64,000 nt of DNA from contig NC_043016.1 of NCBI RefSeq assembly GCF_006345805.1, positions 18,228,001 through 18,292,000 of the forward strand, given 5' to 3'. The DNA comes from Octopus sinensis. Taxonomy: Eukaryota. Position 1 is the first letter of the stretch; each line of letters opens with the position of its first letter. The notes under the pieces were generated by a model that made no database searches, was not told the origin of the DNA, and saw only the letters and a program-made list of their open reading frames with translations. The position numbers and the translations under genes are program-made. This document shows positions 890 through 56,469 of the stretch, in pieces.

Positions 890-1270
890 ATATGGGAAAA
901 AACAAGAAGAAACTGGAGAAGAAACGGATGTATGAATAATTTTTTTGTATGTTGCAAAAAGGCGAAAGTTACATTTAAAAAACATAACAATACAAATAAA
1001 TTGATTGCAGGTTGAAAGTTCATAAAATAAAATAAAAATAAAATAAGGAACCTACATATATGTTTCAGTTCTATCACTGAGTTGATTGGAATTTCCAAGC
1101 ATTTTAATACTTTAATACTAAGAAAGGTACCATATTCTAACTATATGGTGGTGGGACTTCTTCAGGGTTAGCATAGAGCTCTTGGGTCTTTGGTAAAAGT
1201 AACTTTCATCTTTTTGCAGCATACAAATAAATTATTCACTCAACCATTTCTTGTTTTTCCCCCCAATATT
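890..1270 (-). mobile_element. Penelope/retrozyme-like non-autonomous element with inverted terminal segments
   Basis: 933-972 and 1199-1238 are inverted repeats (36/40 identical); they enclose a hammerhead motif; left end abuts (TA)n. Confidence 0.6.
1049..1169 (-). ncRNA. Type I hammerhead ribozyme motif with long stem II
   Basis: Minus strand: AACC-CUGAAGA-AGUCCCACCAC...GUGAUAGAACU-GAAAC-AUAUAU-GUA-GGUU; stem I AACC/GGUU, palindromic stem III ACAUAUAUGU, GUA cleavage triplet. Confidence 0.75.
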
Positions 1271-12914: not shown

Positions 12915-13380
12915 AGTCATGCTAGGCTAGTCATGTCATCAGTATGAGTGATGAAAGAATATCCAAAGTCCCCATGTACTGTCAGCTTGAGAGTGGACAC
13001 AGGAATGTTGGTTGACCATGGCTCAAATATAAGGACAGGCTAAAGAGTAATCTCTTGGAGATGAAGGTAACTCACAATATTTTTGAGCAAACAGCCTTGA
13101 TACGAACAAAATGGAGATCGTTGTGTCAAAATGGTATTAAAAACTTTGTTGCAACCAGCATTAACAGGCTTCAGGGTGCAAGGCAAAGGAGAGAAGTGGT
13201 TGCAAATATGCCACTTGCACTGACCTGTAATCCTCATACTTGTAACATCTGTGGCCTCCTTTGCAAATCGTTGGCAGGACTTAAATGTCACATTCGACAT
13301 AAGCATTAAGACAGACATTACAAAGAAAGAGGATGTTGTTGAAGCCTCATACGTCAAAACTGACGGGAGAGTCCGTCATA
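12915..13380 (+). mobile_element. RTE-clade LINE 3' fragment (post-RT region plus C2H2-like zinc finger), pseudogenised
   Basis: Single frame HVISMSDERISK...GHRNVG*PWLKYKDRLK...RTKWRSLC...CNICGLLCKSLAGLKCHIRHKH*, matching the RTE pattern GHVxRM..R.GRP..RYKD.LK..R..WR. Confidence 0.85.
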
Positions 13381-15532: not shown

Positions 15533-16681
15533 TACATGGTTTGATCAGTAAGTGTCCAGACTGTTGCCATAGTAGTGAAGCTAAAGCATGCAGAGTGAAG
15601 CTGCTTTGCACAAATTGACCTTGAACTCTGCTGTGCATGCACACTAAGTTTTAATGCTCTAGCTCACTTCTGCTGTTTACAGCAGTACTTGGAAGGAAGG
15701 TGTGTAGTATGTGATCATTGCATTGACAATGACAGAGAAAGCTGATCTGAGAATCTGCATCAAATTTTGCCAAGAGCTTGGCGATACCTGCTCAGAGGCC
15801 TAAGCAAAGTTTCAAAGAGTTTGCATCGTTCTTGATTCAGTGGAAGTATTATAAAGCATTTTTCACACGATCATAATAGATAGGTCTGTTAAGAAATAAA
15901 ATGAAAGTGAATATAGCATTTTTGAGTGTTCTTGAATAGCTAAAAAGTGACTCTTACATGGTGAGAATTCTTCATTTCGAAGAAATTTTATACACATACG
16001 TACATGTATGCATTTTATTTTTCTAATATGTAACCGTGTGTGTATTGTTGGCGATTTTCTTTCTCTGTCTTCCCTTCTTCGGACCTTTACTATATTTCTG
16101 ATATAACTGAAACCCAAGTGTCTTTTTGTCCGGCTGAAAACAGTTTTGGTACAAAAATTTGCAGACGCGCGTCTTATACCTAAATCTTCAGTGATAAAGG
16201 ACTGAACTGAACCGTAACTATTCTGCACATCCTCTGATAACTCATGGATGGTGATTCGAGGAATTCCTCCACACAGCTGCATACATATCTGTGATGTTTT
16301 TCTCAGTTCTGCTGGTTACAGGTCTCCCAGAATGTTTGTCACTATTGACATTTTTTCAGCCATCATGGAAACATCTGGACCACTTGTACACTTGTTTGCG
16401 GCTTATACACTCCTCTCCATACACTTTCTGCAACTTTCCGTTAGCCCCTGAGCAGGTATTGCCATGGCAACTTTCTCTGTCATGGTCAATGTGATGATCT
16501 CACGCTACACACCTTCCTTCCAAGCACTGGTGTAAATGGCAGAAGTGAGCTAGAATGTTAAAAAACTTGGTGCATATGAATAACAGAGTCCAAGGTCAAC
16601 TTGTACCAAGCAGCTTCACTCTGCATACTTTAGCTTTGTTACGAAGGCAACAGTTCGGGTACTTATTGATTAGACCTTATA
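15533..16681. mobile_element. Mariner-derived fold-back element: two inverted 5' ends around a captured 263-bp insert
   Basis: TA-flanked TIRs (TACATGGTTTGATCAGTAAGTGTCCAGACTG / rc TATAAGGTCTAATCAATAAGTACCCGAACTG). Left arm encodes MTEKADLRICIKFCQELGDTCSEA*. Right arm (minus) encodes KLQKVYGEECISRKQVYKW...SGRPVTS...RITIHELSEDVQNSYGSVQSFITEDLGIRRASANF, i.e. the mariner HTH and linker. Confidence 0.88.
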
Positions 16682-18302: not shown

Positions 18303-18840
18303 ATATATATAATAATAATATTAGGGAATATGATTCCAAACTTACAGAGATAGATTCAATTTAGTAATACTAAATCAAATTTCACAATATATAATATATG
18401 TCTATAAATTAGAGAAGAACCACCATGTAGCAATTCAACAATGATATAATGAAATCCTAATATATAGAAAAAAAATTAAATATACGATAAAACATATACC
18501 TATAATTAAGTAAAGTACAAAATAATGAATAAATAGTATATAAATAGTATATAATTAGTAAAAGAAGATACAGTATGGAACTGATATTTTAATGAGTTAT
18601 ATCTATTTATCATCTGATGAGACACATCTGCATCACCAGATGCTCCTGAACCAATAAAGTGTCCCTCTGTTTACCATATGCATAATGAACACTGAAATTG
18701 ATCATACTTTACCGGTAAGCTACCGGTAAGCTACCGGTAAGTTACCATTTGTCATTATATATATATATCCTCTGGCTCTGATAAAATATTTGAGAAAAAT
18801 TATATCAATATATCTTGTCTATTGAAAATCCATATATTTT

Positions 18841-18924
18841 TGCAACTGAAGATGGCACTATTTAAATTAGTGTAATGCTTGCATTGTTCAATTAAATGGA
18901 GCTGCCTTAAACAGTCGTAATGCA
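18841..18924 (+). ncRNA. Degenerate type I hammerhead motif with long stem II (G12->T)
   Basis: TGCAA-CTGAAGA-T-GGCA...TGCC-T-TAAAC-AGTC-GTA-ATGCA; stems I and II pair, but GAAA is mutated to TAAA. Confidence 0.5.
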
Positions 18925-19037
18925 CTGATACTTGGACATCTTGTTACTTATGTTGATTTTATTCACCTTACTTCAAGTGGTATGGACAGTACTGGACTGA
19001 CTTGGTACTTCAACTTAAGTTCTTAATTCAACTGAAT

Positions 19038-19074
<37 letters not shown>

Positions 19075-21775
19075 CAAAGGAATTCCAACTCTGTCTGTTT
19101 TTTATGTTTTATTTATATTCTTTATAATATTAATATAGAATATATAGTATAAATAATATATATAGTAAAATGAAATGAAGTATTGATTGTCTTATTGAAT
19201 ATCAAATATTAAGGGACTAGTATATTTTCTTGCATTTAAGCAGTCTTCAAGGTCTCATGTTGTGGCAGGAATGTTTCAACTGTATATATACATACATATG
19301 CACACATTCACATACACAAGGTGTGTTTCGTGGGATTTCCTTGAGAGATTTATTGGGGAGGTATGACAACCTAACCTTAACCCTGCTGCTTCAACTTACC
19401 TTGTTCAGATTTCTCCACACTACACCCATTTTCCAGTGTGGGGTGGGGGTGGGGGAAGCTCTGTAGTTGTCATTGTCAAAGCGAAACAGCATAGACGATT
19501 ATATGCATATACTTCATCATTGACTAGACCAATAATCTGGCCTGTTTCCCCACCGACATTTGATACCAGCAATTTGATACTGTTTTACATACTCCTGTAC
19601 ATGACCTGCAGGAAAAGTGTGATTGTGAGGGAAGAAGGGTTTTTTTTTTTTTGTATGATTTTGAATTTTGTCTAGGCTTGGCTTGTCTGTTTTAAATTTT
19701 TTATTTGAAAAATCTTACAGAATAAGCTTACTTAATTTTATAAATTTTATAATTAAAAATGAAAAATTAGTGAGATTGATGTCATTGATGTTTTCTTATA
19801 AAGAAAACTAGACTATTACAGAAACATCCAGGGAGACAGCAATCATCTTTGAGGATAGAACAATTGCCATGTTTAGTGATTGTAAGGAAGAAACATGGGT
19901 TGATAGAAAATTTCAGAGGAATGATTTTTTTTGAGATTGGGAATAGTGTTAAGTGTATGACCTAGGGGCTGCAGACACGTTATAGGTAATGAGAAGTAAA
20001 GTTAGTTATTTATCAAAAGATGGTGTGAGACCAACCAGTTCCAGAGTATTACACTATAGTAGTAGTAGAAAAGGTAAAAGGACAAGATCATACATCGGTG
20101 GGCCAAAAATTGGAGTGTGGTGGTGAGCTGTATTTTGACAATCAGTTGAGTGGCCTTTGTTGTAAGACTCAGATGACACCCACAATGGAGTATTGATTCC
20201 ACATCTGGAGGCAGTACTCAATCATTTGGACTTTAAAGAATTTATCAGTTGTTGGATTATGAAGTATTTTCTAGCTCTGAATTGAAGGCCAGTCTTTGCG
20301 AGGCATCCTTTGCCATAATGAAGATATATACTTGTTAGGGGAGATTCTCATTGATGGTTTAGTGGGAATATATAGTCAATACAAGGTGTTGATGTGGCTG
20401 TGTGTATGTTATTACAAGAGTTCATTAAGAGATAAAAGAATAAATTCAAGACCTATATATTTACTACATAAAAATATATTTTATTTACTGGTTGATGATG
20501 ATACATAGAATCAAAATACAGAATCTAGCAGAATGAAGTAATCTATACAAAAAAGTTCAGGGATAGGAAATGTAGAAATAACAGCTAAATGGTGGTTTTC
20601 AGTCACGTGGCGTAGAGAAATAGACATGAATGGCTCTAAGTCTAACCAGCTAAGAAGCGAAGAGCTGGGTTAGCAAGCTGTTTTTATTAATGGAATGCTA
20701 AGCATTCTAGAAATTTCCAAGAGAAATGCCAAGCTTCTTGAATAATTAAGAATCACGTCTCATGACATTGATACTTCGAGAAGCTTAGAAAAGGGATCTT
20801 TCTTGCAAGGGAGATCATTCAACTATCTAGCTATGGTCTCATGCAAGACCTAGCCTCATGCAAGTCCTGATACAGCAGATCTGGGATCTAGGAACCTCAT
20901 TATCCAATGTGTTTTTTTGTCTAAGATGTTAAAAGAGATTTGGTTTCTAATTCTGGATGGTCAAATGATCACTTAGAGGCTTAACTACACTTTGTATTGG
21001 AGTGCGCTGTCTTAAGACTTGGGGCTTCAAACATAGGGCTTTAGGAGCTTTTAGCAGAATCTGTTTAGTTACAAGCATTCTGAATCCAGTCTCCAGTGAG
21101 TTTGATATCTTGATCTGATCAGATAGTTCATACTAAACGAACCTGTGAATCAAGTATTTTTCCATCCCTTATCAGACACTGAGGCCCTTGAAAATTAATG
21201 AATTTATTGTCTTCCTGCTGAGTGTGACATAAAACAGTTAACAAAATGAAGCTGGAAAAGAATAAATAATGTATGGAGGGAGATTTCAGTTCTTTACTGG
21301 GAAGTTTGAGTTTGCTCCTTGATGCATCATACATAATTTTGTCTACATCCACCATGTTTGCCTTCAAGCTGTAAAGGCTTTATATGGTTCTTTTGCTGTT
21401 TCTGTTATAAGCTAGTTTTTATAAGAAGTGATTACCACCCTTTAGTTCACTGCCTCCCACATCATTTATTTAAATTTACGATGGCTGGCATCCCTTTCTA
21501 CATAAAAACAACAAGATTGGAAGAAGACACTTCTGAAAGAAGGGGAGACGAAACAGATTGGATCCACATCAGTGTTTAACTGGCACTTTAGTTAATTCAT
21601 TCCAAAACAATGAAAGGTGATGTTGACCTTGGCATGATTTAAACACAAAATGCAATGAACTGGACCAAATATTACAAAGAATTGTTCTGGTGCTGTAAAA
21701 ATTCTATGAATCCACTATTTTATTATTATCATCATCATCATTTGCTTTTTAAGCATGAGGGTTTTTAAAATTATA

Positions 21776-43041: not shown

Positions 43042-43563
43042 GGTTAGTTAGTTAGTTAGTTAGTTAGTTAATTTGGCTCAAAAGCAAATAGCAAGGCCAT
43101 GTAGGGGGACATGGAGTTAAGTACAGGGTGGTGTTCATGTAAAGAGTTCAGGCCACTTGAGGTCAAGGGAGGCTTTGAACAAAGCGGTCGTCGGCATCTT
43201 CACCATCTCGTCTGGCAGCTTGTTCCACGGATCCGCAACCCGGACGGAGAAAGCTCCTCTCCTTCGATTGAGATGAAATCGTCACAGGTAGAGCTTTTCG
43301 GAATGACCCCACAGCCAACGCTCTGGAGCAGGAGTGAAGAACAGCTCTTTCGAGAGGTTACACTTTCCGCTTATGATGTTGTGAGCGAGAATGAGATCAC
43401 CACGGCGGCGGCGTTTTTCTAGAGAATAAAGGTCGAGCATCCTCAGCCTTTCTTCATAAGACAAATTTTTGAGACCATGAACCATGCGGGTAGCCAGCTT
43501 CTGGACTCTTTCGAGATGCTGTATGTCTTTGAGGAGATAAGGAGAAGAGGCTTGAATCCCGTT
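43042..43563 (-). mobile_element. CR1-clade LINE 3' end with (AACT)n tail
   Basis: Minus translation GIQASSPYLLKDIQHLERVQKLATRMVHGLKNLSYEERLRMLDLYSLEKRRRRGDLI...GHSEKLYL*RFHLNRRRGAFSVRVADPWNKLP...FKASLD; one CGA->TGA stop. Confidence 0.92.
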
Positions 43564-45872
43564 ATATCTGCACAGATTTAATCCTTTAGTTTTCACATTA
43601 CTTTGTCAGAAGTAATGCTTATCTATTCTCATTCATTCATTTCATTTAACATCTGTCGCCCATGCCGGTATCCAGTATGGGTCGGATGGTTTGACCAGGG
43701 CTGTTAAGCTGAGTGGCTGCACCAGACCCCCAGTCTGATTTGGCATGGTGTCTGTAGCTGGATGCCCTTCCTAATGCCAACCACTCCAAGACTATGATTT
43801 CACTTGGCTTGGTGAGTCTTCTTTTCATGCACAACATATTGCCCTTATTTGTCACTGCCTCCGTGAGGCCCAATGCTCAAAAGGTGCTTTTTATGTGCCA
43901 CTGGCACAGGTGGTAGTTATGTGACACCAGCACTGACCCTTGTTTTGTATTAATCATGCATTATGTTGTAGTTTTGAGATTTTGAAGAGGTGTTAATTTT
44001 TAGAACAACATTGTAGTGTTGGTGTGAGAGGCCAGATCTGGCCAGTTTGATAATAAAATAGGTAGAATATTTTGGTCAGAGTATGGCTGGATTAAATCCT
44101 AAAGGGGATTAAATGCTAAACTTTCTACTAAACAATCAGCACACAAAAACATCCATTCTTAACTACACTATTAACTAAAGAAACTAGATATTACTAACAA
44201 GTGATCAGTTTGTTTTATCATTGATGAAAAAGAGAGAAACTTTTCTGTAAACTTGAAAAGTTACGGTACTAACTTGATAACAATATGGTTAAAATTTGTA
44301 GATGAGGCTGTGGCAAAATGATTGCACAGTTTCCACAAGGAGATTTATTTCTGCTGAAAAGGATATTCTTTCAACTTAGCATTATCATTGTTTTCACAAT
44401 CCTCCTCCTCATCATTATCGTCATCACAATTGTCCCCACCACAACCACTGCCATGATTCCTGTTGTTAGTGTTATTTCAATACAAGTTTAGTTTTGCAAA
44501 TTGGAGTTGAAGTAGCAAAATGGCTTCAGTTTGAATTGACTTAAGATTTGAAAATTCTAGGGAGAACTTGGACACCAAATCACCTTGGTCTTCTGCCTAT
44601 TCTAATAGGTATTTATTGGAACATTTTCGACTGTTTATTCGGTTTTTGTTTTCTGTTCATATTTTATATATTCCCAAACTAGTGTAGTGGTCTCTCTCGT
44701 AGGAAGGAATTGGTCCAGCACCTCAGATTATATTACTTTGAATTGAACTATTCAGCTATTGATATCATTGAACTCCAGTATTCAACTGGTAGTTTATTTT
44801 ATTGGCCTTGGAGGGATGTAAAGCATAGTTAGCCTTGATGGAATTTGAACGAATGTAAAGAGCTGAGCTTATGTAACACAAGACATTCTGTCTAATGGAA
44901 GCTGCACTGATTCTTCTTGTGTACTACTACTACTACTATTACTACTGCTATCACCACTACCACCACCACCACCACCACTATCACCATCACTACCAATGTT
45001 TTTACTATCACACCATCTCATACTTGGATGCCTTCAGCAGAGTCTGTTTTACTTTAAGCACTTGAGCCAAACATCTAGCCTGAGGCAGGGCCCATACTGT
45101 CCAAAGTACCACCTAGTGAGATTGATCCTAGAACCATGTCTTTTGCAAAAGTAAACCTCTTAACTGAACAGCCATACCTCTAGAATCACATGGCCACAAT
45201 ACAAATCCAAAGACCTAGTCTTTGGTGATGAGGCAGTACTGCTGTAACTTTAAAATAAATACTTACCACTCAACTGGAATTAACCGGATTTCATGAATCA
45301 GAGAATCAGATGAAAAGTTAAGAAACAAACATAAAAAGGAAAATGTTAAGAAAAAAACCCAAAAAATTTAAATAAAAAAAATTCAGAGAAATAAGTAAAA
45401 TAATCTGTACAAATAAAAAAAAATTAAGATAGAAAAAATACAATTGAAAAAAAAAATAAATGGTTACTAAACGAGTCTGGTAAATTATATGAAAACAATA
45501 GAAATAACAACAAAAATACAATAGAATTGTACAGGTTGAAATGAGTGTATTTTAATGTGTTATTAAGAAGCTCCAGTTCAGGTTTAATGTGAGAATTTAA
45601 ATAGCGAAGTCAATTTTGAGAACTTAAAAAGAAGACATTGGTCATGCCACATATCACCTTCCATGTCATATGTGTTGCGAGTGTGTGTGTGTATATGTGT
45701 GCAGTATGTGCATGTGTGTTTTTGTTTGTGTTTGTGTGTGCTGTGTGTGTGTACATGTATATAAAAAAATATGCATACACTCACACACACATGCACAGAC
45801 ATATATTTTTAAATGCATAAATATAAATGTACAGACATACATACCTACACTGACACATGTGCACACATGCAC

Positions 45873-49440: not shown

Positions 49441-49770
49441 ATTTAAAGGATGGTTGGTTAGGTTCATATCAAGCCAGTAATCAATTAAAAGCTCTAACTT
49501 CACATGCAGATCATATTGATTATGTCTAGATCTAGTTTAATGGTTTTAGTAGACTCTGCCTTGATCCTTTATAGATCCATTGTAATCAAAACCATATATT
49601 TATATATATATAGTAGTCTGGAACAACTGAATCTTAGTCAGTCAGTTGATGGGCTCCACTACCTCAAATGTTCTTAAAATTTAAATTCACATCTTTGTCT
49701 ATATATCTACCTTCTCTATAATGTTGCCACTTGATATGAAAATTTTTGTATTAATGGAAAACCTCTATAA

Positions 49771-49856
49771 TTGGCTGATGAGTACTCAGCATTTTAAAAC
49801 TGTTGTAATACTTACAACATTTAATAAAATGATGTAGTATGAAACGATTGTACCAA
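49771..49856 (+). ncRNA. Type I hammerhead ribozyme motif, intact core, extended stem II
   Basis: TTGG-CTGATGA-GTACT...TGTTGTAA-TAC-TTACAACA...AGTAT-GAAAC-GATT-GTA-CCAA; stem I TTGG/CCAA, quasi-palindromic stem III ACGATTGT, GUA triplet. Confidence 0.8.
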
Positions 49857-49888
49857 GTTACCGGAGTCATTCTTGTTGCTTATTTTGA

Positions 49889-49950
<62 letters not shown>

Positions 49951-49953
<3 letters not shown>

Positions 49954-50135
49954 TATAAGAAGGAATTACCACTATGTGGAAACCCTTATGCTAGAAGTAG
50001 ATCCGCTATGGTCCTAATCTTACGTTTCTGGTGTTTGCTAAATTTTCCAGAGAACGATTCTTAGTGGTAGGACCATAGCAGATCTACTTCTAGCATATAA
50101 AGGTTTCCACATAGTGGTAATTCCCTCTTATATGT
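49951..50135. mobile_element. Fold-back MITE with ~66-bp near-perfect TIRs
   Basis: 49951-50016 is complementary to 50068-50135; inner CGTTTCTGG/CCAGAGAACG also pairs. Confidence 0.8.
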
Positions 50136-51360
50136 ATGTAATACTATTTACTGAACCTCAGTTTTTTAATATGCTAGACAACTTGTGTTAAATTGATGTT
50201 ATCAGATTAATATCCAAATTTTCACCCTCATTTTAATTTTATATATATATATATATATATCGTCGTTGTTTTAATGTCTACTTATTATGCTGGTATGAGC
50301 CCAGTAAATTATTATGTGTTAATTATTTATGTGTAAATTATTTAGTGTTGCTGTGCTCTCCTGAATAATTAGACCATATCATACTCATTCATTCCATTTT
50401 GGGAACAGCTGGCAGCTAGATACATGCCTCTGTACGTGGGCTTATATGGCTAAATAATAGTTATATATTTACATATATTTGCATATGCTTGTATGTATGT
50501 GTTTGTGACTGTAAGCTCAATGTGTGTGGTTATGTGTCTGATTCATGTGATTACATATACATGACACACAATCAATCAATCAATACATAGTTATCTTGCA
50601 TAGTTATTGATTTATTGATTATTAATTGTAAGTTTTTTTGGGTTTTTTTTTAACACATTAGGGTCTAATCTGTTAATGTTTCCAACCAGCATTAAGTGCA
50701 CTATATATATATATATATATATATATGCAGGGATCAGTAATAATAGAAATAGGTCTTTAAGAGTACATGCCTTGCTGTCAGCGCTGTACATCAGAACTAT
50801 ATCAGAGAAACTATAGATCTCCAATAAAATTCATACACACTCACATCACATTCACACACACACACACACATTCACACACACACACACACAAAGACAAAAT
50901 AACTGGTTTGAAACAAAAAAAAATAGCTAAGATCATAATTATTCAAACTGATTATTTGTTAGCTACTTGAGTTTTTAAATGCATGAATGAAGTAGGAATA
51001 GACGTGGTTGAGTGACTCTAAGAAGCTCACTTTCCAGTCACATGGTTCTCGGTTCACTCCCATCGTGTGGCGCCTTGTGCTAGTGTCTTCTACTGTGGTT
51101 CCATGCTGACCAAAGCCTTGTAAGGGGATTCGACAGATAGAAACTGAAAGAAGCCCATCATATATGTATATGTGTGTTTGTGTAAATAACTTTCTATTTC
51201 TTTCTTGTGTATACTTTTCTCTCACTGGTTGTAAGCCATGACTTTGCTACCAATAGTTTTTGCTTGCAGTCCACTGTGATAACACTTCTGGGCTTCTTAA
51301 CATGTCTTGACGTTAATACAGTTCTATATTTAAGAGATGAGGATTTATGTACATTATTTA

Positions 51361-53848: not shown

Positions 53849-55180
53849 TATAACTCTAGGGAATCTAGGTATTTGGTGTCACCACCCAATGACATGTGGA
53901 TTCCACCTGATCAGCTTCTTCATAACTTCTGTCTCCTTAATTTCATTCACAAGGCTTGGGTTTCGGTTTGAGGTTATGGTAGAAGATACCTGCACAAGTC
54001 AAGTACAGTACAGTGCAGTGCTGTGCTGTGCAGTGCTGTGCTGTGCACTGGGATCAGCTCCTCTATCCTCTATGACAGGATTGTGAAGTAGCTTCTAAAC
54101 CACATGTCCTGCCAGTATTAAAAGAAAAAAAATCTCTACATTTTATTAATTAAAAAAAAAAATTCTGCATTTTAAAAATTCTTACTGCATTTAAAAGCTG
54201 CAGTTATAGACAGGATTGATAGATGCTGCTGTCAGGAATATTGTAACAGTAAAACCAAAGACCAAGTTTCAGTAACACAGGAATGGTGTGGGTGTGTCTA
54301 TGAAGCTTGCCTCCCAACCATATATATGGTCTTGGGTTCAGTCCCATTTTGTAGCACCTTGTGCAATTGGGTGTATTTGTGTGTGTGTAATTGTACATAC
54401 ATATAATGTGAAGGTGCATGGCTCAGTGGTTAGAATAAATCTGCTTCTTCCTACCAGTTCTTATCTTGAAGTCAATCAGTTTCTCTGTGGCTGAGAATAA
54501 TTTCATTGTCTTGCAATTATTACTTGTCCATTTGAAAAGCTGTCTTTTCACTTCCTTACATCTGTGTTCTCATTTCTTTTCCCTCTGTTTATAATATATA
54601 ATATGTGACAGAAGCAAAAGAGAGAGGGAGACAAAGTTTGTGTTAATGTGTTTGTACATAGATATAGAAACATTTTATTTAGACACACACACACTCATAC
54701 ACATTTATTTAGAGTTCTCTCTTACTTTCCATTGAAATCTACCTTCACTATTTCATTTCCAAACCTCCCTCTCAACAACATGTACTTATTTGATGCACAC
54801 ACCCCTCTCTCTCTCCTTCAATGCAACCATAGTCTATTCTTTTCCACACTCTTAAAGCGTTACAGAAAGTGGGTAACCAACAAACATAAATACAACACAC
54901 TTCGTACCTGTCTATAATATCAATAATACTAATCATTATTTCGATAATGGGAATTTTCTAAAATAGGTAAACACCACAAATTTTGAAAGAAAAAGGTGTA
55001 GTCAAATATATCTACCCCAATCTTTGTCTTATTTCCGTAACCAGAGTAATAAACTTTATTTTTATCTTTTATTGAACTCAGAAAGTTAAGCAAAGTTCAC
55101 CTGCCAGGATTTGAACTTGGAATGTTAAACATAAGCAACTACATACTGCAAGGTATTTTTGCACCACTTGAAAAAGTATT

Positions 55181-56148
55181 GGTGCTACCATGTAAAAAGC
55201 ACTGGTGCTGGTGCCACGTAAAAAGCACTGGTGCTGGTGCCATGTAAAAAGCACTGGTCCTGGTGCCACATAAAAAGCACTGGTGCTGGTGCCATGTAAA
55301 AAGCACTGGTGCTGGTGCCATGTAAAAAGCACTGGTACTGGTGCCTTGTAAAAAGCATTGGTACTGGTGCCATGTAAAAAGCACTGGTGCTGGTGCCATG
55401 TAAAAAGCACTGGTACTGGTGCCTTGTAAAAAGCATTGGTACTGGTGCCATGTAAAAAGCACTGGTGCTGGTGCCATGTAAAAAGCACTGGTACTGGTGC
55501 CTTGTAAAAAGCATTGGTACTGGTGCCATGTAAAAAGCACTGGTGCTGGTGCCATGTAAAAAGCACTGGTGCTGGTGCCACATTAAAAAGCACTGGTGCT
55601 GGTGCCATGTAAAAAGCACTGGTGCTGGTGCCATGTAAAAAGCACTGGTCCTGGTGCCATGTAAAAAGCACTGATGCTGGTGCCACATAAAAAGCACTGG
55701 TGCTGGTGCCATGTAAAAAGCACTGGTACTGGTGCCTTGTAAAAAGCATTGGTACTGGTGCCATGTAAAAAGCACTGGTGCTGGTGCCATGTAAAAAGCA
55801 CTGGTGCTGGTGCCATGTAAAAAGCACTGGTACTGGTGCCTTGTAAAAAGCATTGGTACTGGTGCCATGTAAAAAGCACTGGTGCTGGTGCCATGTAAAA
55901 AGCACTGGTGCTGGTGCCATGTAAAAAGCACTGGTCCTGGTGCCATGTAAAAAGCACTGATGCTGGTGCCACATAAAAAGCACTGGTGCTGGTGCCATGT
56001 AAAAAGCACTGGTACTGGTGCCTTGTAAAAAGCATTGGTACTGGTGCCATGTAAAAAACACTGGTGATGGTGCCACATTAAAAAGCATTGTTGATGGTAC
56101 CATGTAAAAGCACTGGTGATGGTACCATGGTGTCATGTAAAAATCACC
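55181..56148 (+). repeat. 26-bp minisatellite (TGGTGCCATGTAAAAAGCACTGGTGC, ~37 units) fused to a family C SINE tail
   Basis: Directly visible; continues into the family C 3' end at 56148-56310. Confidence 0.95.
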
Positions 56149-56469
56149 CAGTACATACCGTAAAGTGGGTGGCATTAGGTAGGGCTTCCAGCTTTAGAAA
56201 CCAAACTAAAACTGGTGACGGGATTTGGTGCAGCCCTTGGCCTTGCCAGCTCCTTTCAAGCCATCAAACCCATGCCAACATTGTAAACTGACATTAAATA
56301 ATGATGATGGTGATGAGGATGTTACATAGATTCAGCCAAATTCAAATGTTAATAATGATGTAGATTGGGGAAAAAACAAAAACAAGAAAAAAACAAAGCA
56401 AAAAACAAACAAAGAGGAAAAAGGTAAACATCTACCGGCGTATATAAATTGTGACACTCGGGCACTGAT

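What the first reader, a model, noticed from the sequence alone, without database searches (positions are those of the whole stretch)
49771..49856. Best-preserved hammerhead ribozyme: intact core with a 59-nt extended stem II
Seen: UUGG/CCAA stem I (extendable UAAUUGG/CCAAGUUA), CUGAUGA, stem II GUACU/AGUAU continuing through AUUUUA/UAAAAU to an 8-bp apical hairpin UGUUGUAA/UUACAACA, then GAAAC-GAUU-GUA. The two departures from the ideal (G10.1-U11.1 and ACGAUUGU vs palindromic ACGAUCGU) are both simple CpG decays. It sits in a ~260-bp segment bounded by TA runs and is sense to the putative host intron, so it could cleave the pre-mRNA. It is unrelated in sequence to the 1049 and 18841 motifs, implying at least three independent long-stem-II families in 64 kb.
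Basis: partly seen in the sequence, partly recalled or inferred. Interest (0 to 1): 0.75.

Follow-up and report, generated by a model that had tools for sequence, protein, structure and literature searches.

The report
Long-armed retrotransposon hammerhead with poly(A) hexamer
This is the end fragment of a high-copy Penelope-like jumping gene carrying a predicted self-cutting RNA whose second arm is 59 bases instead of the 12-26 published for its relatives; the arm holds a conserved AAUAAA that likely acts as a partly hidden polyadenylation signal, and no role in a host gene was found.

Summary
The motif is real and as described (only descriptor hit in the window; 0.01 expected by chance). It lies in a 277-bp, 5'-truncated 3' end (pLTR) of a Penelope-like retrotransposon of the Hydra clade, inserted in a TA repeat. 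There were 2,241 first-look candidates, the best 97-98% identical. Longer copies carry RT and GIY-YIG endonuclease upstream on the same strand; near-full-length ones have the hammerhead also before the ORF. Paralogues confirm both CpG changes, and both occur in several copies of a young sister family. The 57-60-nt stem II is kept across subfamilies with compensatory changes (12 of 23 pairs). Its 3' strand holds A(A/U)UAAA 17-26 nt before the cut in 20 of 22 subfamily representatives, whether paired or not, followed by a U/GU-rich tract: likely a poly(A) signal. The 18841 motif is a homologue, not an independent family. I found no host gene. The palindromic loop III predicts dimer- or protein-dependent cleavage; nothing was assayed. 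The scan already noted long-armed Hydra hammerheads, and once the hexamer, on other DNA. New variant of a known kind; this copy is ordinary.

The parts
49612..49888 (+). 5'-truncated 3' end (3' UTR / pseudo-LTR) of a Hydra-clade Penelope-like retrotransposon
   Evidence: 97-98% identical to dispersed copies; copies extend upstream to a sense GIY-YIG and RT; ends defined from flanks
49594..49611 (.). left TA-rich flank, inferred part of the (TA)n target
   Evidence: sequence; family homology starts at 49612
49771..49774 (+). stem I, 5' strand (pairs with 49853-49856)
   Evidence: 4 of 4 pairs change on both sides among 31 family members
49775..49781 (+). core CUGAUGA (C3-A9)
   Evidence: sequence; C, U, G, G, A invariant in alignment A2
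49782..49840 (+). 59-nt stem II: basal helix starting G10.1-U11.1, middle AU helix, apical hairpin
   Evidence: fold z -3.5; compensatory changes in basal and apical helices
49801..49819 (+). apical hairpin with 3-nt loop, the best conserved part of the arm
   Evidence: 97% of cells paired, 3 of 7 pairs with changes on both sides
49823..49828 (+). AAUAAA, 24 nt before the predicted cut; likely poly(A) signal (inferred)
   Evidence: canonical hexamer in 20 of 22 subfamily representatives, variants in the other 2
49841..49852 (+). GAAA core, self-complementary stem/loop III (49844-49851) and GUA triplet; predicted cut after 49852
   Evidence: self-duplex of 8 pairs with two G-U, -5.8 kcal/mol
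49853..49856 (+). stem I, 3' strand
49870..49887 (+). conserved U/GU-rich tract (downstream-element-like; also abuts the element's 3' end)
   Evidence: kept in the 22 representatives, 45-73% U
49890..49943 (.). right (TA)n run, inferred target microsatellite
   Evidence: sequence
18836..18931 (+). decayed homologous hammerhead of a related subfamily (core G12 changed, AUUAAA in the arm)
1049..1169 (-). hammerhead of a separate repeat family with an 88-92-nt stem II
   Evidence: not hit by model R1

Best explanation
This is a 277-bp 5'-truncated end copy of a high-copy Hydra-clade Penelope-like retrotransposon inserted in a TA repeat, whose terminal repeat carries a type I hammerhead predicted to cut only as a dimer or with the element's protein and whose 59-nt stem II likely shelters the element's poly(A) signal. 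SHOWN: the element (RT, CxCX5C linker, GIY-YIG, hammerhead before and after the ORF); the conserved, covarying long arm; the A(A/U)UAAA hexamer 17-26 nt before the cut and a U/GU-rich tract after it; copy ends about 35-40 or about 120-135 nt past the cut, none at it among endonuclease-selected copies. INFERRED (about 0.7): two RNAs pair through the palindromic loop III to cut tandem or read-through transcripts to unit length. INFERRED (about 0.45): the hexamer plus U/GU tract form a leaky poly(A) site at nearly the same bond as the ribozyme cut. The arm would damp it, so that some RNA reads through to the internal priming sites used for target-primed reverse transcription into (TA)n. This copy itself is likely a passenger with no host function (about 0.9).
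For: Copies: 2,241 first-look candidates, top ones 97-98% identical, with variable 5' ends, fixed 3' ends, inverted truncated partners and TA flanks. Protein: GIY-YIG in sense 1.3-1.6 kb upstream in long copies (Pfam PF01541 at 24.4 bits, cut-off 22.6). 18 of 20 loci picked only by the endonuclease have the segment downstream in sense. L083 has hammerhead-ORF-hammerhead; L169 has hammerhead-ORF with an ATG about 190 nt past the cut. Hydra motifs match PMC8557442 section 11. Structure: 90.6% of cells paired and 12 of 23 pairs with changes on both sides in 31 sequences, against 28-50% paired when partners are slid. Hexamer: canonical in 65 of 79 parsed model hits and 20 of 22 representatives, with AAUACA and UAUAAA in the other two. 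Its pairing probability ranges from 0.00 to 0.98, and only 8 of 198 control windows upstream hold one. The window's G-U and loop III variants are shared by unlinked copies of a young sister family (L088, L105, L106, L165). Literature: dimer requirement and low activity (PMC4209133); a protein-assisted hammerhead and internal RT starts on uncut RNA (PMC11167929).
Against: No cleavage or polyadenylation was measured. The hexamers are homologous, so their count is not independent evidence. The apical hairpin is as conserved, so a protein-binding or tertiary role explains the conservation too. Other long-arm hammerheads here (1049 family; hits in L175, L176, L164, L136) lack a hexamer at that distance. 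No poly(A) loose ends appeared in the contigs laid (contigs cannot show ends). The monomer of this copy prefers a misfold by 2.8 kcal/mol, and its loop III duplex is weaker than the majority's (-5.8 vs -10.0). The window family reads RWI where Hydra has RWK. No tree with published Hydra proteins was built.
Confidence: 0.8

Rival explanations
1. The long arm is mainly a binding handle for the element's own RT-endonuclease, or a tertiary-contact module that activates the ribozyme; the A-rich hexamer is kept for that contact, not for polyadenylation.
For: The apical hairpin is the best conserved part. The PAc hammerhead cuts only with its protein (PMC11167929). Several long-arm families lack the hexamer.
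Against: The hexamer switches only among poly(A)-type variants (AAUAAA, AUUAAA, UAUAAA, AAUACA) and is an unpaired bulge in L171/L172. A U/GU-rich tract follows at the expected distance. The two roles are not exclusive.
Confidence: 0.35
2. The hexamer is a TATA-like promoter box of the 5' pLTR, with a start site near the ribozyme cut.
For: PLE pLTRs hold internal promoters, and a putative TATA plus Inr was reported in rotifer pLTRs (PMC3846280 passage). One relative has TATAAA (L185). The window family has an Inr-like string just after the cut (consensus recalled).
Against: AATAAA and ATTAAA dominate (20 of 22), the Inr-like string is not kept in other subfamilies, and spacing to the cut varies from 16 to 26 nt.
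Confidence: 0.1
3. This copy has been co-opted to cut a host pre-mRNA.
For: The core is intact and both CpG changes become G-U pairs.
Against: It is one of very many near-identical young copies and has drifted at 5 of 266 sites, 4 of them in or beside the motif. No host exon was found in the window or 120 kb of flanks. There is no intact cis partner. Introns cut by a hammerhead still splice (PMC2995048 passages).
Confidence: 0.04
4. The hammerheads of this lineage are catalytically dead relics and the arm grew neutrally.
For: No endonuclease-selected copy ends at the cut. In PAc, cleavage is dispensable in vitro and no reads end at the cut.
Against: Core letters are invariant or nearly so while stems covary, across subfamilies whose endonucleases are only 45-65% identical. 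Core changes are 1 of 341 cells against 1.4% in flanks (borderline).
Confidence: 0.08

Closest known systems
Hydra clade of C-terminal EN+ Penelope-like elements and their hammerheads (Craig et al. 2021, PMC8557442; includes Hydra-1_Obim)
   Same: RT then GIY-YIG; CxCX5C linker; CxxC and CxH around the conserved E and N; no CCHH; DKT; (TA)n targets; sense type I hammerhead near the 3' end. G-U and U-U at 10.1-11.1 also occur in the published table.
   Different: Published stem II spans 12-26 nt in 26 rows (23 nt in Hydra-1_Obim) against 57-60 nt here. Here the hexamer lies inside the arm; by eye it lies just upstream of stem I in 5 of the 26 published rows. The element is longer (Asn-rich linker, 3' UTR of 0.5-1.3 kb).
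[quoted passage not shown]
   Same: Type I, short stem I, palindromic stem/loop III, mostly solo truncated copies, predicted dimer cleavage.
   Different: Helix II is 6-8 bp there; here it is a three-helix arm.
PAc Poseidon element of Anolis (PMC11167929)
   Same: pLTR hammerhead; two fixed genomic 3' ends downstream of the cut, matching internal RT starts; AT-rich targets.
   Different: In PAc the ORF starts inside stem II and the tail is 30-40 nt. Here the ATG is about 190 nt past the cut, the two ends are about 100 nt apart, and both abut a UUAUA string.
PLE-X1_sMoe hammerhead and Naiad 'half-core' motifs (PMC8557442 File S2 and methods)
   Same: Precedent for a long stem II in PLEs (about 54 nt in PLE-X1_sMoe; half cores 35-50 nt apart in eight Naiads).
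   Different: Other clades; listed as deviations, with no conservation analysis or function seen in the parts read.
HIV-1 polyA hairpin (PMC2645353, abstract only)
   Same: Analogy of working only: a hairpin in a terminal repeat that encloses AAUAAA and represses polyadenylation.
   Different: No ribozyme and no homology; function is shown there and only inferred here.

Membership tests
Type I hammerhead ribozyme | Core CUGANGA, GAAA and NUH in a three-way junction, ends in stem I | tested here: met
Type I hammerhead ribozyme | Stems I and II supported by covariation | tested here: met
   stem I 4 of 4, basal stem II 3 of 5 pairs with changes on both sides
Type I hammerhead ribozyme | Stable stem III as a monomer | tested here: not met
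   only A15.1-U16.1 plus one C-G; loop self-complementary, dimer type
Type I hammerhead ribozyme | Match to an Rfam hammerhead model | tested here: not met
   none among the 150 listed of 161 matches at E<=5; the models expect a short stem II (recalled)
Type I hammerhead ribozyme | Self-cleavage at the NUH site | not testable with these tools
   needs an assay; only contigs were available
Penelope-like element, EN+ | RT followed by GIY-YIG endonuclease in one reading direction | tested here: met
   L169 and L083 (window family, broken frames); L181 has one 947-aa frame (sister family); PF01541. Pfam gave no RT hit on these proteins.
Penelope-like element, EN+ | pLTR repeats with hammerhead, 5' truncation, inverted partners, optional tail | tested here: met
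Hydra clade | CxCX5C linker before the endonuclease | tested here: met
   19 of 27 fragments match; the other 8 are clipped or changed
Hydra clade | CxxC and CxH around conserved E and N; CCHH absent | tested here: met
   CxxC in 25 of 27, CxH in 24 of 27; absence of CCHH read by eye
Hydra clade | DKT in place of DKG | tested here: met
   L083, L169, L106, L171, L178, L181
Hydra clade | RWK motif | tested here: inconclusive
   RWK in L106, L181, L175; RWI in the window family; RWR and RWA in others
Hydra clade | Insertion into (TA)n | tested here: met
Hydra clade | Placement in an RT tree with published Hydra proteins | not tested
   published proteins were only read in a supplement and compared by eye; the tree holds only this genome's endonucleases
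Naiad, Neptune or Nematis | N-terminal EN (Naiad), or CX2-5CxxC linker with CCHH (Neptune, Nematis) | tested here: not met
   EN is C-terminal and the linker is CxCX5C
Non-LTR retrozyme | Non-coding head-to-tail tandem units each with a hammerhead | tested here: not met
   copies are truncated ends of a coding element
Canonical poly(A) site | A(A/U)UAAA 10-30 nt before a cut, with a U/GU-rich element after it (spacing recalled) | tested here: met
   sequence features only
Canonical poly(A) site | Poly(A) tails added at that site in vivo | tested here: inconclusive
   no A-tailed loose ends listed in contigs; no raw reads were offered

The most novel reading that the evidence does not exclude
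In this retrotransposon lineage the hammerhead's stem II has become a 3'-end switch. It wraps the poly(A) signal so that polyadenylation, ribozyme cleavage and read-through compete for nearly the same bond, sorting transcripts into poly(A) mRNA for the protein and uncut or circular template for integration. This would give PLE hammerheads a testable job and imply many self-cleaving motifs in this genome that Rfam misses.
Probability: 0.3. Interest if true: 0.7.

Novelty: new variant of a known kind. Interest (0 to 1): 0.4.

Why it matters
What hammerheads do in Penelope-like elements is open: they cut poorly, and cleavage was dispensable in the one reconstituted system. This lineage offers young copies, a sister family with an intact ORF, a covarying 60-nt arm and a poly(A)-type signal placed at the cut, so ribozyme, arm and hexamer can be mutated separately. 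It also shows that short-stem-II descriptors and Rfam miss a high-copy class of hammerheads. The single copy in the window matters little.

Tried and rejected
Rfam scan: no hammerhead listed; its mir-297-type hits are microsatellite artefacts. I first guessed Nematis or Neptune from memory and dropped it after reading the Hydra definition, a lead from earlier notes. A second GIY-YIG next to copies L034 and L044 lies beyond TA runs and differs in sequence, so it was treated as another family. Host gene: ORF listing, repeat masking, Pfam on 28 window and 16 flank ORFs, and PDB and protein searches with one exon-like stretch (21427-21570) gave nothing; short exons could be missed. Expression: no RNA holder is listed on record. 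Contigs of runs guessed to be RNA hold family sequence but cannot show ends, strand or level, and no poly(A) loose end or pile-up was listed (46 and 16 loose ends not shown). The structure string was misregistered and is discarded. Model R1 and one search have the middle helix off by one column; one search is the corrected count, and gap placement still blurs that helix. No genome-wide count of intact cores was obtained, so copy statistics rest on fetched loci; the 31 copies were chosen for likeness to the window copy and include linked pairs. One search dropped 7 of 86 hits that could not be parsed; 2 of the 79 kept were mis-parsed (length 14) and count as misses. The Lunse et al. paper on dimeric PLE hammerheads was not held and is known only through a review's passage. 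Literature searches showed no paper describing long-armed octopus hammerheads or AAUAAA inside a natural stem II; subscription journals, Repbase and bioRxiv supplements were not visible.

Full report
Observation. The motif is at 49771-49856 as written. A descriptor allowing stem II up to 150 nt finds only this site in the window, against 0.01 per window in 200 shuffles. Stem II folds with z = -3.5. Rfam lists no hammerhead among the 150 shown of 161 matches.

It is a transposon end. The 266-bp segment has 2,241 first-look candidates in the genome (a lower-bound-type figure, not a copy number), and the best are 97-98% identical. Copies differ in their 5' ends, share 3' ends, sit in TA repeats and often have an inverted truncated partner. 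Of 54 family copies followed past the cut, 29 stop 34-41 nt after it and 25 run on, mostly to about 120-135 nt (classified by eye; two sister-family rows left out). The window copy spans 49612-49888.

The element is coding. Three long copies carry a sense GIY-YIG 1.3-1.6 kb upstream (PF01541). Of 20 loci picked by that protein alone, 18 have the segment downstream in sense, one has only an inverted copy and one has none; none ends at the cut. L083 has hammerhead-ORF-hammerhead, and L169 has the hammerhead about 190 nt before the ATG. Sister families show the same layout (L106, L178, L188), and L181 has one 947-aa frame. The host is likely an octopus (inferred from a 2.7-Gb genome, recalled repeat types and likeness to Hydra-1_Obim).

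Clade. Earlier notes pointed to Hydra, and I tested this against PMC8557442 section 11. The CxCX5C linker (19 of 27 fragments), CxxC (25 of 27), CxH (24 of 27), DKT and (TA)n targets are met; RWK reads RWI in this family. No tree with published proteins was built.

State of this copy. It differs from the majority of 31 close copies at 5 of 266 sites; C is the majority at 49840 (25 of 31) and 49849 (27 of 31), confirming the CpG reading; 30 of 31 keep the core. Both changes leave G-U pairs. The loop III self-duplex drops from -10.0 to -5.8 kcal/mol (-7.9 with a majority partner), and the monomer prefers a misfold by 2.8 kcal/mol. The same two variants occur in unlinked copies of a young sister family, and G-U or U-U at 10.1-11.1 appears in published Hydra hammerheads and, for U-U, in natural hammerheads generally (PMC3088659 passages). 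So the copy is weakened but probably not dead (inference).

The long arm is selected. In 31 members, 90.6% of cells pair and 12 of 23 pairs change on both sides, against 28-50% paired when partners are slid. A 16-member set gave 6 of 18, and RNAalifold independently recovers the basal and apical helices. Relatedness inflates the shuffle control. Stem II is 57-60 nt in 68 of 79 parsed hits, against 12-26 nt in the 26 published Hydra rows (File S2). Precedents for long arms exist: about 54 nt in PLE-X1_sMoe, and Naiad half cores 35-50 nt apart.

A hexamer in the arm. AAUAAA lies at 49823-49828, 24 nt before the cut, and a U/GU-rich tract follows at 49870-49887. A canonical hexamer 10-35 nt before the cut is in 65 of 79 hits and in 20 of 22 hand-picked subfamily representatives; the other two have AAUACA and UAUAAA. 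Its pairing probability runs from 0.00 (a bulge in L171, whose endonuclease is 46% identical to L181's) to 0.98, and 8 of 198 upstream control windows hold one. Against this: the sites are homologous, other long-arm families lack it, and contigs showed no A-tails. I noted the idea before finding that an unreviewed note had it for another genome.

Mechanism. Metazoan PLE hammerheads are proposed to work as dimers and cut poorly (PMC4209133, parts 1-2 of 4 read; review PMC6765202 passages). The PAc hammerhead cuts only with its protein, uncut RNA is the main template, and internal RT starts define the genomic ends (PMC11167929, section 3). I infer the same here. Both end points abut a UUAUA string that could pair with a nicked (TA)n target, although PAc priming was non-homologous. 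Every copy kept sequence past the cut, so its template was neither cut nor polyadenylated there, or was a re-ligated circle. A hairpin that damps the poly(A) signal would allow this, by analogy with the HIV-1 polyA hairpin (PMC2645353, abstract only).

The 18841 motif is a homologue, linked by intermediates that lie downstream of related endonucleases; its core is broken. The 1049 motif belongs to a separate family with an 88-92-nt arm and no protein link found. No host gene was found in the window or 120 kb around it. Even if intronic, hammerhead cleavage need not block splicing (PMC2995048 passages).

Novelty. Hammerheads in Hydra pLTRs are published; a conserved 60-nt arm with an internal hexamer was not found in my searches. 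I also read part 1 of 5 and passages of bioRxiv 10.64898/2026.07.22.740005 and passages of PMC3846280. The scan found this class before on other DNA, with no look-alike of this exact stretch. Verdict: new variant of a known kind, interest 0.4.

Noticed in passing
window 49947-50139: About 190-bp fold-back element right after the TA run, with arms of 43 and 30 nt at 93-97% complementarity; MITE-like or a head-to-head repeat end.
   Followed up: no
window 1049-1169 (-): Separate repeat family (246 first-look candidates) with an 88-92-nt stem II and a longer palindromic loop III; clade not determined.
   Followed up: partly
L176:385 (-), L182:2575 (+), L164:2190 (+), L175:4434 (-), L136:2944 (+), L098:1630 (-): Further hammerheads with stem II of 55-93 nt and palindromic loop III, in unrelated sequences; long arms seem common in this genome.
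   Followed up: partly
L069, L073, L077, L169: The RT-to-endonuclease linker holds long Asn-rich (AAT)n tracts kept in frame, as reported for rotifer PLEs (passage).
   Followed up: no
L169:760-1035; L097; L107: Both preferred 3' end points lie directly before an internal TTATA string, suggesting microhomology priming on (TA)n targets.
   Followed up: partly
G000 C29:1319805, 1371192, 1811485, 16583231: Four near-identical full-length copies on one contig with equal scores; segmental duplication or an assembly repeat.
   Followed up: no
window 55081-56193: Tandem array of about 30-nt units giving long low-complexity open frames.
   Followed up: no
window 43285-43605 (-), 13043-13375 (-), 15866-16500 (-): Decayed fragments resembling a LINE RT end, another LINE and a mariner-type transposase (labels recalled, not from a call).
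   Followed up: no
window 21427-21570 (+): Exon-like 48-codon stretch after an AG; no hit in Pfam, PDB or the protein search.
   Followed up: yes
L086:5122-6690 (-): Intronless 523-aa frame resembling a UDP-glucuronosyltransferase (label recalled) about 2 kb from a family copy.
   Followed up: no
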